This document shows, piece after piece, positions 22,101 to 28,100 of a stretch of DNA of 64,000 nt (positions are counted from its first letter, which is position 1; every line of letters begins with the position of its first letter). Position numbers: made by a program. Source of the DNA: Nitrospirota bacterium (lineage in GTDB: Bacteria; Nitrospirota; UBA9217); NCBI GenBank assembly GCA_963754875.1, contig CAVWHO010000016.1:256001-320000 (forward strand), given 5' to 3'.

Positions 22101-25100
22101 CGCCCTGTTTTTCCCGCACATATCCGATGTCTGGTAGGAACCACACACCGCCGGCCGGTCCGGCGTGCCGTAAATCGCGCAGAGGTTGTTCTGCGTCAAT
22201 TGTATGCACCGGACTCCTGCGGGTTTTCCACCGGGCATGCCCGGAACGTTCGACGACAGAGAGGGCGCAATACAACAGGCGCCGCATCCGGCGCGGCAGA
22301 TAAATCTTTGTGCATCGGGGTTTGTATTCATGAAAAAAAACGGTCTTCGCCTGCGGCCGAGTTCCAGGACCACCCCTGCATCAAAATGAAATAATCACTG
22401 GACCTTGAGCTTCTGCTTCGTAAAGGAGATGAGGGTTTTCATCTGGGCGAGCAGGCTGTCGAATTCCTTGTCCTTGGCAGTTGCCGAGTGGTGAAGTACG
22501 ATCAGCATGCAGTTACTCCCGGATTACGTGATGGTCACGCCGGGTCAGGCCAGTATAATGTTTCATGACCGGGCGTAGAAAAAAACCGCCGCGTTTTCAT
22601 TTTTTTTCTCCCCGTTCCCGTTTCCGGCGCACCGTAATGCTCTCACCGGCAATGCCCCAGTTATCGGTATCCACTTCTTCGATGACCACGACCGTGGTTT
22701 GCGGGTTCTTTCCGAGGATATCCTGCAGCATGGTGGTCACTCCCTGGATCAGCTTCGCCTTCTGTTCCGTTGTGGCGCCTTCTTTGGTTATTTTGATGTT
22801 TACGTAGGGCATGCAAACCTCCGCAATCACGTGATGACGTCATACGACGTGCGCTAAAAAACCGTACCGCCGATATGCGCCATGGTGAGGCCTTTTGTGA
22901 TCTCGCGTTTGATATAGACTTTGATCACGCTTTGATCTTCGGGGTTGATGCGGACAAACTTTATTCCCATGCCCGAAGTTTTCAGCGGGCCTTCGCCGCG
23001 ATGGAAACTGTAAAGCACCATTCCCTCGACCTTGATTTTCAGGTCTTCCAGTAATATCGTGATGGGGATCTGGAGCCCTACAGGTTTGGGTTTTGATGTG
23101 CTGATATACATCCCCTGTTCCGACAAGGCAGTGATGTAATCTCCGCTCCCGGCAAATTCCGCGGCTTTGTCATCTCCCACGATGACGTTCAACGAAGTAT
23201 TAAGCCGGATATACTGGCGTGGCCGCGATTCCGTCGCTTTCTGTATCGCCGCGTACAGCACATCGGGCTCCACCGGCTTTTGCAGGTAGGCGGCGCACCC
23301 TTCCTGCAGAGCGGCGGCTTTGACCGCCTGGTCTTTTGACGACGTAAGCATGATGACCGGCACGGAAAAGGACTGCGGATTGCGTTTGATCTTTTTCAGG
23401 AGTTCAACACCGTCCATCCCGTTCAGGGATATTTCCGTCAAGACCAGTGCGGGATGGGCAACGCCCACGATCTCCAGTGCGTCTTCCGCGGTTTTCGCCG
23501 TATGGATATTGTATTCGAGCCGTTGCAGCAGCATGCTTGTATAATACAGATGTGCGTTGTTGCCGTCGACGACGACAAGGAAGCGTTTTTCCCGGTCCCC
23601 GGATTTTACCGCCGCATTTTGAACAATTGTGTCAGCCATCGCTGCGCTCCTTGCTGTGTGATTTCCCTAGGAAGATCATTCGTTGCTTTTGTTCCCGCAT
23701 CTCATGGTTCTTACGCCCCAAGGGGTTTAAATCGGCAGCTTGATTTTATACCGGATGGCGAGCATCCGCAAGATGAAAGTTACGCCGATGCAGGCGCTGA
23801 CCGCCGCAATATCGTTGCCGCCGGTATGGGTGACGATCAAATAGACCCACGCGCCCAGGAAGGCGCAGGTCGCGTACAGTTCGGTGCGCTGAAAAACATA
23901 GGGGATCTCATTGCAGATGATGTCACGCATCACGCCGCCGAAGACGCCCGTAATGACGCCGAGGAGGGATGAAACGAAGGGGGCGCAGCCGAGCTGGTCG
24001 GCGAGCGACGCGCCCGAGGCACTGAACGAGCCGAGCCCCAGTGCATCGAGCATAAGAACGAAGTGCATCACTTTCTTTTTGTTAAAAAGTTGCTCGATCT
24101 TCATCGTCGATACCATGGACAAAACGAGAAGAAGGACGGCATACTCGTAATGCTGTATCCAGAACAGCGGGTGACGGTCGAGCGTCAGGTCGCGCACGGA
24201 CGCCGCCGCCGAAGGCCGTGATCATGCCCACGGTATAGACGCCGACGATGTCCATTCCCTTCTTCCGCGCCTCGTAGATCCCCGTAAGGGCAAAGGCGAT
24301 GATACCGAGGACCTCGATTGTTTTAATGAGCGTGTTCATCAGATCACGTCATTTCTCCTGGTATGTTCCTCCGGGCTCACTTTAAAGTCGAGGATCTGCC
24401 ACTGGCTGCCGTGCTTAATCAGCGAAATTTGCATCTCCACCGATCCCGCCTCGAAATCCGCGCTCGCGGTGTAGTCGGCAGTGATGTCATATCCGCTCAG
24501 GGAAATGGTTATATTGGAATCTCCGGTCGAACCGTTATACCCCTGGAACTTTCCCAGTTCCTGGAGCGATCCGAAGTAGTCCTCCACATCATCGTAATCT
24601 ACAGAAGCGTCGAGTTCAGGACTGGCGCGTTTTTGAAGTTCCTCGACGTCCCAGTCGGCAACAATCGCAGGCACAGCAGCGTCCACAAAGGCCTTGCTCT
24701 CTTTGTCCAGCTTCTTTCCGATGATTGTTACGGACGCGATCGTGGCGGCAATGACTACGATGAGGGTCAAAAAAATGTAGCCCAGAATCATGATCGTTTT
24801 TTTCATGGATGGTCCTGCTCCTGCTGTTTAACAGCGGGGCTCTTCTTCCTTACAATAATAACACGATTTTTCATTCTGTATGGTATATCTTGCCGGATGG
24901 CCGGGAGAGCCTCAGGTCCTCCTCGGGACGATGTCGCTGCCGACGGCTCGGCATCGGGTAAGGAATGCGCAGCGGGCGCTGCGAAACCTAGTGGAGCCCT
25001 CCGGCAGGAGCCGGAGGCTCCAAATACATACACGACCTCCCGCCTGCACCCGGCGTTTACGGGTGCAATAGCACGAATGCAGGGCGCGCGTTACGGCGCG

Positions 25101-28100
25101 TTCCTCCCCCGGCGGGGGCCGGGGGATTCCAAGTCGCGGGATCGGGCCATGCTCCCAAGCTCATCGAGCAACGTTCCTGCGCTTCCCGGATCATGGAAAG
25201 CCGCGGCCTTTGCCTCGTTCCACCTGCGCCGGAGCTTCTTCACCTTCTCGCCCCTTGCCTCTTTCTTCTTCAGGAGCCGATCCAGTACCTTCAGCCGGGC
25301 ATGGTCAGCCTGCAGATCTCTGCTAAAACTGCGGTACTTCACAGGATCGGCTTTCGGAATCGAAAAGTCGCCCTTTGTCTTCCAGATGTCGCCCAGATGG
25401 AGCCATGCGGCAAAAGCGGTCGTCTTTTCATCAGCCAGAGGAACGATCTTCGATGTGGCCCTGATGTCCGTTACGTGAAGTCCGTTCTTGTCCGCTACAA
25501 CTTTCTGGCTGCCGGTGAACGGCTCTGCTCCCTGCGTATCAAAATACTTCCACGTCACCCGTGCGATTTGCGTCTCTGAGCCATGGCAGCTTTCACAGGT
25601 GCGGGACTTGCCGTAAGGATGCGCAACCTCTTCCACCTGAAGCCACGCAAGGTAATTGTTGTTCCCGCTGGCAACTCTGAATGTTCCGAGAAGCGCATAT
25701 GCGTCGTGGGTCTCTCCCTTTGGCCAGCGGAATGTGAGCCCCGGTGTCGGTTTGATGACTTCTTTGATGCCGCCTGCGCTGTTCGGCCAGATCTTCGTCG
25801 GCATCCACCTGCCGTTCTGATCTTTGAGCAGGATCGGCGGTTCCTGCGGTCCATAGTACAGCGAATACTTTTTGAAGGGATTCGGTTTGGAGAGGATCTC
25901 CCCGGGTCCCCAGGAGGTCATCTCATAGCCGCCGAGGACCTTCACGTGGCAGGCAGCACAGGCAAGGTTCTTGTGAACGCTCGTGGCCATTGCCTGTTCT
26001 ACTTCGACGTGGCAGTCCTGGCACGTCGCCTTTCGGTCAATATGTCCCATGCCGCCTGGCCCGGTTTCGTGACAACCGACGCACTCGATCTTCTGGGCGA
26101 CGTGGACATCTTCAGGCAGACCGGCTGGCTCCGAGAAATCTTTGCCGAGATAGCTGTCCCCGCGCCTTCGCTCCATGGTCCCGGCATGACACACGAAAGT
26201 GCTCCGCCCCCCTCCGGTGCAGTTCGGCGACGGCGGGATGCGGCTGAACGCGTGGACGCCCTGCTTCGGCGTGGGCGCATAATGACAGTCGAGACATCCC
26301 GCGTGGCAGATGTTGCACGCCTTCTGCTTCGCGATCGCCTGATCGTGAGAGAGCGGGAGATTTATCTGTTCAATAATCTTTTTTGTATTCTCGAAGGAGA
26401 ACTTATTTCCTTCTGCCCTGCCGACCGGCTGGGTGTCCGCAAAAGACGGCCCTCAATTATTCGGGCCGTGAATATCGTCCCAGACCCGCATGGACCGCTG
26501 CCGGAAATTCGCGCCCATGATGCTCGTACTGAATTGCTTCACTTCTTCGGGATGGCACGAAGACTGGCCGCAGGTCTTCTGCGCGATACGGGGATCGTAG
26601 CCTAAGGTGAGCGTGTTCCGGTCGTGATACAGGATCGTGCCCACGTCGTAATCGAGCGACCCGTCAGCAAGGCGCGGAAGCATGTTCCGCAAGCGGTCTC
26701 CTCCTGAAGGAAGGAGCTGATTGACATGGTTTTTGCGCGGTATGATGTTCAGGTCATTGTCCAGCACGATGAGCTTGAGCATTCTCTTGTGCGCCCTGTC
26801 GGGATCATCGGACAGGCCGTTGCCGAGGTGGCAATCGCGGCATTCGGTGTTCGGGTGGCGGGATTCCTTCTGCACCTGCTCGCGGGTCATCACGAACTGG
26901 GGGTAGCCGAGCTTTGTCATGCGTGCTTTGTCCGCATGGCAGGCAACACACTTGTCGCTGGATTGGTAGCCGGAATAGAAGAAGAGGAACAGCAGAACGA
27001 GGGCGAGTTGGAGGAGAAGGATGCTCATCCCGCGCTTGCTTCCGAAAAAATTCCAGAGTCTTCCAATGGCCATAAGAGGTTCTTTTAGATAAAAGTTAGA
27101 ATTTTCTTTTCCTGGTCGATTTGCGGCGCTCTTATTCTACGTTCCACTCGCCGGGTTTTAAATGCGTGAAGATATCCCGGCTCCCATGGATGACGGCAAC
27201 GATGGAACATGATGTATCGCTCGCTTTATAGATTATTCGGTAGGCCCCATAAATAAGTTCCCGGATGGATTGATCGTTGAATTCGGGAACTATGCGGCCA
27301 AGGAAGGGAGACTGTTGAAGTATGCGCGGTGCTTGAACAACACGCACGCCGAACCGTTCTGCATAGACGACGGAGTCTTTGGCAATATACTCAATGATGC
27401 TCTGAAGATCGTTCAGCGCCGGTTCTGTCCAGACGACTTTAGCCATCCCTCAACCCTTTTTTCAGCCTCTTTCTGTGTTACCACGCGTCCTTCGTCAATT
27501 GCTTTCAGGCCGTGCTCCACTTTTTCCCGTACGTAGAGGTGATAATGAATATCCTCCAGGGTTGAGTCTTCGGGAAGGGACTTGATGAGCTCGATCACTT
27601 GTTCTTTTACATGTGCCATACCGCCACCTCCAACTGCATTATTCTAACATACCTCTGCGTGTTTTCACATAAAAATAAATTGTCGAGCATACTGATTTCA
27701 AGCCCAGCAGTGCGTCCATCCCAGGCGCGAGGTTCCTGTTCGCTTGAGCCAGGAACGTAGGTCGGGTAGAGCACAGGGCAAACCCGACATCATTCATTTC
27801 GCTAATTTCACGGTAAGGTTTGTGCTGCGCGACCGCCCTAGTAAAAATCCCGCATCAGAAAAAATCGTTCTTTCACCTTAGCTGATTCCATCGGCCGAAA
27901 CGTTCTGATCTGACCCTGATTCTCACTATATCGTATCTCATAAGGTTGACCGAGCACCTGCGTTAAGTGATAGAACGTCACAAATTCGGCAAAATCCTCG
28001 GCCCAACTCATGCTTCCATATAATGAGGCAAAAGGCGTCTCCAGAAGCTGCTCGTAGATCCGGACAGCGTCGGAGATTTCTATCTTCGGCTGAACGCTGT

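What a model noticed while it worked through the whole genome (the two positions that open the first line are those of the whole stretch)
25091..27073. Membrane-anchored multiheme cytochrome is a selenoprotein (GPNNUGPSFAD)
g02628 and g02627 are one 660-residue gene read through an in-frame UGA: an N-terminally anchored c-type cytochrome with eight CxxCH sites and a selenocysteine in the invariant motif GP(N/H/Q)N[U/C]GPSFAD. It is near-universal in UBA9217 and is none of the known cytochrome selenoproteins (ExtKL, GSU2204 family, Otr).
Evidence so far: In 64 family genomes 54 have it; about 45 full or partial orthologs carry one in-frame TGA at that place, 2 full-length ones none. 84 of 84 full-length (>600 aa) database homologs (48-74% id, named hypothetical or cytochrome c3 family) have Cys aligned with U; the ~400-aa entries are stumps after the TGA. 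In 6 of 6 UGA-type loci a hairpin CCCNGCC-GGUC-GGCNGGG lies 22 nt after the UGA; the 2 Cys-type loci lack it. NCBIfam: nothing better than E 6e-4; PDB sequence and Foldseek searches: nothing significant; review list checked.
(Added by a program. Inside this text positions count along the whole contig: contig position 256,001 is position 1 of the stretch shown here. "Call 12" and the like, gene names such as g00115 and contig names such as C1 are that model's own, and its searches are not shown. The text may have been shortened before it was handed on; [...] marks where a part breaks off. The agent that wrote the report below was given it as the finding of a first reader that could run no searches.)

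Follow-up and report, generated by a model that had tools for sequence, protein, structure and literature searches.

The report
Selenocysteine ten-heme OTR-fold membrane cytochrome
Two apparent gene fragments are one gene for a membrane-anchored cytochrome with ten heme sites whose internal stop codon almost certainly encodes selenocysteine; it is an unnamed distant relative of octaheme tetrathionate reductase and probably breaks or forms sulfur-sulfur bonds.

Summary
Confirmed: one 660-codon minus-strand gene with a single in-frame UGA (U207). In 64 family genomes 54 match; 47 have UGA at this site, 3 Cys, 4 uninformative. Seven genomes of a second family also have UGA, with a different hairpin at the same offset; 54 of 54 UGA loci and 0 of 17 Cys loci pass a hairpin test. 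The genome has selA, selB, selC and selD. Corrections: ten heme sites, not eight, and the protein is related to Otr. Shewanella OTR (1sp3) is the top fold hit (Z 9.9; Z 9.4 against next 3.0 for the trimmed model; profile-profile E 9e-15). The superposition register puts U207 on OTR Cys64, where Sec-type OTRs carry UGA; OTR's Lys56 position is not conserved. Cys-type homologues include G. metallireducens Q39ZA7 (probably the GSU3137/Gmet_0170 family). Best reading: periplasm-facing oxidoreductase of inorganic sulfur-sulfur bonds with Sec beside heme 4; substrate untested. Sec as a direct heme-iron ligand is not excluded. The scan noted this family, with the OTR link, on other genomes.

The parts
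25091..27073 (-). Single gene, 660 aa with UGA read as Sec; ten-heme c-type cytochrome with OTR-like core
26963..27037 (-). N-terminal hydrophobic helix (residues 13-37), probable uncleaved membrane anchor (cleavage not tested)
   Evidence: hydropathy; helix in model
26828..26950 (-). Hemes 1 and 2 (CxxCH 42-46 and 78-82): extra to OTR; heme 2 aligns with an ExtM-like protein
26552..26572 (-). Heme 3, atypical CX4CH (168-174); plain CxxCH in distant homologues; counterpart of OTR heme 1
26453..26455 (-). In-frame UGA = Sec207, the only conserved Cys/Sec outside heme-binding motifs in this clade; maps to OTR Cys64
26416..26433 (-). SECIS-like hairpin, 7-position stem with GGUC loop starting at nt 27 after the UGA
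26303..26317 (-). Heme 4 (C253-H257), counterpart of OTR's second heme motif (C74-H78); proposed catalytic heme
   Evidence: catalytic role inferred
26159..26296 (-). Heme 5 (260-264), heme 6 (atypical CX9CH 285-296) and invariant R303-R304-G305, in the stretch where OTR has its invariant K153-x-G
25946..26083 (-). Hemes 7, 8, 9 (331, 351, 372), counterparts of OTR hemes 5-7
25364..25918 (-). Beta-sheet domain (about 386-570) carrying heme 10 (493-497) and conserved K402, Y406, Y407, K427, R449, D457, H485
25142..25345 (-). C-terminal helices (577-644) with conserved H627; much shorter in Geobacter-type homologues, which mostly keep a His near the end
27134..27162 (-). Sigma-70-like promoter consensus match about 60 nt upstream of the start codon (pattern only)

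Best explanation
The gene encodes a membrane-anchored, periplasm-facing ten-heme selenoenzyme of the OTR fold. SelB reads the hairpin behind the UGA and inserts Sec at 207 (inferred from sequence; very likely). Nine hemes have a His or Met sixth ligand and form a wire (candidates 73 H/M, H95, M186, H274, H324, 342 M/H, H367, H485, H627). Heme 4 is left without one; lacking OTR's Lys56 it is probably held by its own His257, and Sec207 sits at its open face in the place of OTR Cys64, near conserved Arg/Lys residues that could bind an anion. Most likely chemistry: the selenolate attacks an inorganic S-S bond (polysulfide, polythionate or thiosulfate-type), and the adduct is cleared by electrons passing through heme 4, as proposed for MccSep and TsdA; direction and substrate are not shown. 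Shown: frame, conservation, hairpin, Sec machinery, fold relationship, ligand count. Inferred: ligand assignment, topology, catalysis, substrate.
For: Sec. Fold: 1sp3 first in Foldseek (E 0.010, prob 0.90; E 3.6e-3, prob 0.98) and in the wide search (Z 9.9, rmsd 4.0, 250 aligned; Z 9.4, rmsd 4.2, 220 aligned, the only one of 48,161 chains with Z >= 5); profile-profile 98.4%, E 8.7e-15, hemes 3-9 on OTR hemes 1-7. Register: first aligned pair residue 201: chain 58, so 207: 64 if ungapped (1sp3 numbering counted). That Cys is invariant in 23 of 23 OTR-family rows and is UGA with a hairpin in 14 of 118 pattern-matched metagenome loci. C207 is invariant in 145 of 145 rows down to about 30% identity, the only such Cys outside heme motifs. 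In the phylum the gene occurs in dsrA-bearing families and in none of the dsrA-less ones (f9 0/60, f16 0/30, f10 0/13, f5 0/7, f8 0/6). Precedent: MccSep (PMC13510729, parts 1-4 of 8 read).
Against: No assay or structure for any member. The register rests on one endpoint pair of a trimmed model; the sequence profiles align this stretch differently (OTR's NNFC falls near residues 235-243). 1sp3 is absent from the PDB sequence search with the family profile and Foldseek E-values stay above 0.001. No conserved sulfur operon: neighbours are radA, a TRIC/glycine-transporter-type gene and housekeeping genes. dsrA co-occurrence is confounded by kinship; five dsrA families lack a match (f6, f13, f24, f25, f26) and four gene-bearing f1 genomes lack dsrA (G003, G014, G049, G063). 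The host already has MccSep. G. sulfurreducens, which carries the probable homologue GSU3137, is stated not to respire thiosulfate or sulfite (PMC13510729), and GSU3137 shows no fitness effect on fumarate or electrodes (PMC5585712 supplement 3, one row).
Confidence: 0.52

Rival explanations
1. Electron-transfer protein, not an enzyme: Sec/Cys207 is a fixed axial ligand that makes heme 4 very low in potential within an ExtM-like wire.
For: Ten motifs and exactly ten candidate sixth ligands if 207 is counted; hemes 2-9 align with an ExtM-like protein at 99.3%; no partner Cys for a selenylsulfide cycle.
Against: About 66 residues per heme and a large beta domain with invariant Arg, Lys, Tyr, Asp resemble a catalytic cytochrome; the site maps to OTR's invariant Cys.
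Confidence: 0.18
2. Nitrogen-oxide reductase (nitrite, hydroxylamine, NO) at an open His-ligated heme 4, as OTR does in vitro; Sec is a pocket residue.
For: OTR fold; OTR reduces nitrite and hydroxylamine (title of Atkinson 2007 seen in a reference list).
Against: The Lys ligand position is not conserved; recruitment of Sec fits chalcogen chemistry better (inference); absent from the nitrifier-rich dsrA-less families searched (their physiology is recalled).
Confidence: 0.14
3. Detoxifying reductase of selenite, tellurite or peroxide.
For: MccSep reduces selenite as a second substrate (PMC13510729, part 2); weak similarity to ExtM/ExtN, named for a selenite/tellurite operon.
Against: No metalloid or oxidative-stress genes recur beside it; near-universal retention in several families suggests core metabolism.
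Confidence: 0.1
4. The UGA is a true stop (split gene or pseudogene) or is read as Cys/Trp.
For: No protein-level evidence; selA not found in two UGA genomes, G006 (89% complete) and G048 (86%).
Against: The same codon is TGA in 54 loci of two families and never TAA/TAG; only TGC/TGT otherwise; hairpin in 54 of 54 against 0 of 17; frozen synonymous sites; TGA serves as a normal stop elsewhere in the genome.
Confidence: 0.02

Closest known systems
Octaheme tetrathionate reductase OTR (Shewanella oneidensis, PDB 1sp3; NCBIfam TIGR04315), including its Sec-containing members listed as GenBank-annotated in PMC13188914 Table 1
   Same: Fold and heme order (hemes 3-10 here against OTR's eight), C-terminal beta domain with the last heme, Cys/Sec at the Cys64 position, basic residue cluster near K153.
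   Different: 19% identity, far below the family cut-off; two extra N-terminal hemes, membrane anchor, two atypical motifs, C-terminal helices; no conserved Lys at the Lys56 position; His38 replaced by invariant Met186; 31-46 residues between the Cys/Sec and the next heme instead of 10.
MccSep / ExtKL (GSU2937-2936; NF040886; PMC13510729)
   Same: Multiheme c cytochrome with UGA-coded Sec and a G-first hairpin loop; found in Nitrospirota; Sec near a heme.
   Different: Five hemes, Cys239 as heme ligand plus a separate Sec; soluble tetramer. Here one Sec and no second free Cys; no real sequence similarity; encoded separately in this genome.
ExtM / ExtN multiheme cytochromes (NF040943, NF040967)
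   Same: Hemes 2-9 collinear with an ExtM-like protein, including the CX4CH site and Met186.
   Different: Scores far below cut-offs; the ExtM-like protein has no Cys at 207.
GSU3137 / Gmet_0170 orthologue group (family 1819 in PMC2825233 supplement 9)
   Same: G. metallireducens Q39ZA7/ABB30417 (596 aa, nine CxxCH plus CX8CH, GPHNC) belongs to this family; Gmet_0170 has nine CxxCH and is called ten-heme. The link of Q39ZA7 to Gmet_0170 is my inference.
   Different: Cys-type, probably cleavable signal peptide, short C-terminus; no function found in the papers searched.
TsdA and SoxA (His/Cys-ligated catalytic heme c)
   Same: Possible functional analogue if 207 ligates heme 4 (mechanism as summarised in PMC13510729).
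   Different: No match in my fold or family searches; Cys, not Sec.

Membership tests
Bacterial selenoprotein | In-frame UGA aligned with conserved Cys | tested here: met
   84 of 84; 144 of 144 other rows
Bacterial selenoprotein | SECIS-like hairpin just 3' of UGA, absent from Cys forms | tested here: met
   54 of 54 UGA loci, 0 of 17 Cys loci; codons +7, +9, +10 identical in 31 of 31 loci
Bacterial selenoprotein | selA, selB, selC, selD in the genome | tested here: met
Bacterial selenoprotein | Selenium in the protein | not testable with these tools
   needs MS or 75Se labelling
OTR family (TIGR04315) | HMM score above the curated cut-off (375 bits) | tested here: not met
   not listed for the protein; no match in the own genome at 1e-30; 2 of 14 family members at E about 1e-3
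OTR family (TIGR04315) | Eight hemes in the OTR order with a C-terminal beta domain (fold) | tested here: met
   core matches, with two extra hemes: Z 9.9 and 9.4, hhalign 98.4%
OTR family (TIGR04315) | Lys from outside the motif ligating the catalytic heme (PMC13562315 passage; Lys56 numbering recalled, residue seen) | tested here: not met
   position 199 is T/L/I/A/N/V; only K166, K402, K427 are >= 80% conserved; Lys invariant in 23 of 23 OTR rows. Ligation by another Lys cannot be seen without coordinates.
OTR family (TIGR04315) | Invariant Cys64 (Sec in some members) | tested here: inconclusive
   structural register supports 207 = 64; sequence profiles align otherwise
OTR family (TIGR04315) | Tetrathionate or nitrite reductase activity | not testable with these tools
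   no assay
MccSep / ExtKL (NF040886) | HMM match; five hemes; heme-ligating Cys plus separate Sec | tested here: not met
   NF040886 finds another gene on C13 and not this one; one free Cys/Sec only
GSU2204 family (NF041027) | HMM match | tested here: not met
   not among the 15 families matched by 14 members at E <= 0.01
ExtM / ExtN | HMM score above cut-off; place in an ext operon | tested here: not met
   18.7 bits against 200; no ext genes among recurring neighbours

The most novel reading that the evidence does not exclude
Sec207 is itself the sixth ligand of heme 4 (His257/Sec207), a natural selenolate-ligated heme c: a TsdA/SoxA-type chalcogen-on-heme active site built on the OTR fold, in which one Sec does what MccSep splits between a ligating Cys and a free Sec, catalysing an unassigned periplasmic sulfur step common to most dsrA-bearing Nitrospirota. 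That no natural Sec-ligated heme is known is my recollection; I ran no dedicated search for it.
Probability: 0.3. Interest if true: 0.9.

Novelty: new variant of a known kind. Interest (0 to 1): 0.62.

Why it matters
It adds an unlisted selenoprotein family that gene callers cut in two, and gives a fold and a candidate active site to a cytochrome kept by most genomes of several sulfur-cycling Nitrospirota families and by Geobacteraceae, a firmicute and archaea. Paired natural Cys and Sec forms, and a probable Cys-type homologue in the genetically tractable G. sulfurreducens (GSU3137), make two questions directly testable: what OTR's invariant Cys64 does, and whether selenium can serve as a natural heme-iron ligand.

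Tried and rejected
Plus-strand reading of the coordinates: contains stops, not the gene. PDB sequence search with the family profile: only short CxxCH-level matches, best a nitrite reductase at E 3.4e-9 over residues 274-367; 1sp3 not listed. Whole-model fold lists are otherwise filled by helical bundles matching 574-651, treated as uninformative. MccSep did not appear in the fold lists (inconclusive). ESM Atlas with the natural Cys homologue P0004: only unnamed 'cytochrome c family' clusters, no structure search. Covariation (Neff 48) hinted at 205/206 with 299, 385-386, 402, 427, 431 but is too weak to use. Operon: no conserved functional cluster in 70 or so loci; one genome (G240) has the gene 1.4 kb from dsrB on the opposite strand, a single case. 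No RNA holder was listed. Rfam: nothing in the window. The genome-wide hairpin regex was mis-specified and one search had a wrong reference; both ignored. Fragments ending at the motif among fetched proteins: none, so no UGA form was seen outside this phylum, but genomes outside it were not searched. Idea that U207 replaces OTR's Lys56: disfavoured by the register. Literature: motif strings gave 8 unrelated papers; 'Gmet_0170/GSU3137/Q39ZA7' gave one paper with a table row; 'OTR + Cys64' gave none. Mowat 2004 and Inoue 2025 are not held, so the role of Cys64 and the sulfur response of GSU3137 are unchecked. No complex prediction was run because no binding is claimed.
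Full report
OBSERVATION. The stated coordinates hold a minus-strand frame of 660 codons whose only internal stop is a TGA at 26455-26453, residue 207 in GPNNUGPSFAD. Under table 11 it falls into ORFs of 206 and 367 aa. There are eight CxxCH motifs and one hydrophobic segment near the N-terminus. Two further sites, CX4CH at 168-174 and CX9CH at 285-296, are invariant in 145 of 145 aligned rows, and the first is a plain CxxCH in distant homologues, so ten hemes are likely.

THE UGA IS SEC. 84 of 84 database homologues of 600 aa or more have Cys at this column, and 34 of 36 shorter hits begin downstream of it. 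54 of 64 family genomes match; reading the codon gave 47 TGA, 3 TGC/TGT, 3 matches that do not cover the site and 1 paralogue only. In 301 phylum genomes 121 match at E <= 1e-10, paralogues included. Of ten full-length matches outside the family flagged '1 TGA', seven (all family f11) have TGA at the site and three have TGC. A hairpin whose loop opens with G at nt 27 after the UGA, with at least 6 of 7 stem pairs, is present in 54 of 54 UGA loci and 0 of 17 Cys loci tested. In f1 the loop is GGUC in 47 of 47, with one both-sided change; in f11 the stem has a different sequence and a GUC/GGC loop. Codons +7, +9 and +10 are identical in 31 of 31 loci although degenerate, +11 in 30 of 31. The genome has selA, selB, tRNA-Sec and a UGA-containing selD; its selD and extKL hairpins also have G-first loops. 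All seven f11 UGA genomes have selA; Cys-type G001 (96% complete) and family f3 (0 of 9) lack it; against this, selA was not found in UGA genomes G006 and G048 (89 and 86% complete), and Cys-type G058 and G060 have it. A quick tree of 55 rows puts UGA rows in two separate clades with Cys rows nested inside and all outgroups Cys; one gain with losses and two gains are not told apart.

FAMILY. A profile search reaches Geobacter, Geomonas, Oryzomonas, Calderihabitans and archaea; all full-length database members seen there have Cys. G. metallireducens Q39ZA7 (596 aa) is a member. I infer it is Gmet_0170, which has nine CxxCH and groups with GSU3137 (PMC2825233 supplements 1 and 9). Gmet_0170 appears as a ten-heme periplasmic cytochrome, 3.12-fold higher in one co-culture comparison (PMC10989804 table row). 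GSU3137 (1,776 nt) shows log2 ratios between -0.06 and 0.21 in a Tn-seq on fumarate and electrodes (PMC5585712 supplement 3, one row). Some family genomes also carry 35-43% identical Cys-type paralogues.

FOLD. With 145 sequences the model has pLDDT 93.2, pTM 0.90, and 94 over residues 201-210. Shewanella OTR (1sp3) is first in Foldseek (E 0.010) and in the wide search (Z 9.9, rmsd 4.0, 250 aligned, 19% identity). For a model of residues 199-576 it is the only one of 48,161 chains with Z >= 5 (Z 9.4, rmsd 4.2, 220 aligned; next 3.0). Profile-profile comparison with 23 OTR-family sequences gives 98.4%, E 8.7e-15, with hemes 3-9 on OTR hemes 1-7. Hemes 2-9 also align with an ExtM-like protein that has no Cys at 207 (99.3%). 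Against: Foldseek E-values stay above 0.001 and the PDB sequence search does not list 1sp3.

THE SEC SITE. I trimmed the second model to start just before U207 so that the first aligned pair would give the register: residue 201 pairs with chain residue 58. Without gaps this sets U207 on Cys64 and D199 on Lys56 (numbering counted). It is one endpoint pair, and the sequence profiles place OTR's NNFC further downstream, so the mapping is probable, not proven. Cys64 and Lys56 are invariant in 23 of 23 OTR-family rows. The 2026 review lists Sec-containing TIGR04315 proteins as GenBank-annotated, with ExtKL and the GSU2204 family as the other cytochrome entries (PMC13188914; passages and parts 1-2 of section 7, which hold Table 1). 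OTR's catalytic heme is bound by a Lys from outside the motif while the motif His turns away (PMC13562315 passage). Position 199 has no conserved Lys here. Nine His/Met positions are conserved or exchange His with Met (73, 95, 186, 274, 324, 342, 367, 485, 627; the last in 125 of 144 rows), one short of ten hemes, and C207 is the only invariant Cys outside heme motifs. H150 and position 362 are His in only part of the family. So one heme, by homology heme 4, either has an open site beside Sec207 or is ligated by it.

CONTEXT. No functional operon is conserved: radA upstream and a small membrane protein plus a TRIC/glycine-transporter-type gene downstream recur in f1, other genes elsewhere; one paralogue clade sits by CcdA- and ResA-like genes. 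By family tallies the gene is found only where dsrA is common and in none of the dsrA-less families (f9 0/60, f16 0/30, f10 0/13, f5 0/7, f8 0/6), but five dsrA families have no match and four gene-bearing f1 genomes lack dsrA; kinship confounds this. The own genome has dsrA, a separate UGA-type ExtKL and no TIGR04315 match.

MECHANISM. Most likely (0.52) a periplasm-facing oxidoreductase of inorganic S-S bonds: the selenolate attacks the substrate beside heme 4 and the wire of nine hemes supplies or removes electrons, in the manner proposed for MccSep and TsdA (PMC13510729, parts 1-4 of 8). Rivals: a pure electron carrier with a His/Sec low-potential heme (0.18), a nitrogen-oxide reductase (0.14), metalloid or peroxide detoxification (0.10), a true stop (0.02). 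G. sulfurreducens is stated not to respire thiosulfate or sulfite, which argues against these as growth-supporting substrates for the Geobacter form.

NOVELTY. Heme-plus-Sec enzymes are known (MccSep) and Sec-type OTRs are annotated, probably at the same residue. This family is in none of the lists or libraries I checked (NCBIfam June 2026; review table; ten paper searches; most subscription papers are not held) and differs from OTR in heme number, anchor and catalytic-heme ligand: a new variant of a known kind. Earlier notes of this scan describe the family on other genomes, two with the OTR link; I had reached that link before seeing them. Added here: the U207 = Cys64 register, the missing Lys, the second UGA lineage with its own hairpin, and the probable GSU3137 link.

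Noticed in passing
G000:C13:139614-140888 (L108): Separate ExtKL/MccSep gene with an in-frame TGA and hairpin in the same genome.
   Followed up: partly
L164, L169, L172, L178, L180, L182, L191, L210, L215, L217, L223, L236, L251, L257: 14 metagenome OTR genes with TGA at the Cys64 position; 13 of them also have an extra Cys two residues before the second heme motif (NWCxC), coded within the hairpin.
   Followed up: partly
window 24987-25075: Palindromic intergenic element downstream of the gene with nine partial copies elsewhere in the genome; no Rfam match.
   Followed up: partly
window 27132-27446 (-): 104-aa ORF just upstream that looks like a ParE/RelE-type toxin of a toxin-antitoxin pair (resemblance recalled, not scanned).
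   Followed up: no
window 23727-24335 (-): TRIC/glycine-transporter-type gene matches its 203-aa orthologues over only 160 residues in one frame; possibly frameshifted near its start.
   Followed up: partly
window 24339-24806 (-): 155-aa protein without a Pfam or NCBIfam match that follows the cytochrome gene in 8 other loci.
   Followed up: partly
P0122, P0256, P0258, P0259: Archaeal-type homologues end in a CGP motif plus hydrophobic tail, resembling a CGP-CTERM sorting signal (name recalled); P0127, P0133, P0136 have an extra C-terminal CxxCH and a C-terminal anchor.
   Followed up: no
L103 (G001:C66), P0146: 1,150-aa fusion: an N-terminal five-heme cytochrome module joined to a Cys-type copy of this family, 14 CxxCH in all.
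   Followed up: no
L280:5357-10920 (G240:C55): Cys- or Sec-status not read; an orthologue lies 1.4 kb from dsrAB on the opposite strand, a single case.
   Followed up: partly
G000:C8:150496-160311 and 392257-410280; C20:1638-16175: Clusters of large multiheme cytochrome ORFs (up to 26 CxxCH) in the own genome.
   Followed up: no
window 28940-29512 and 36512-37000 (-): Pentapeptide-repeat protein and dihydrofolate reductase score far below the cut-offs of Qnr and trimethoprim-resistance families; ordinary genes.
   Followed up: yes
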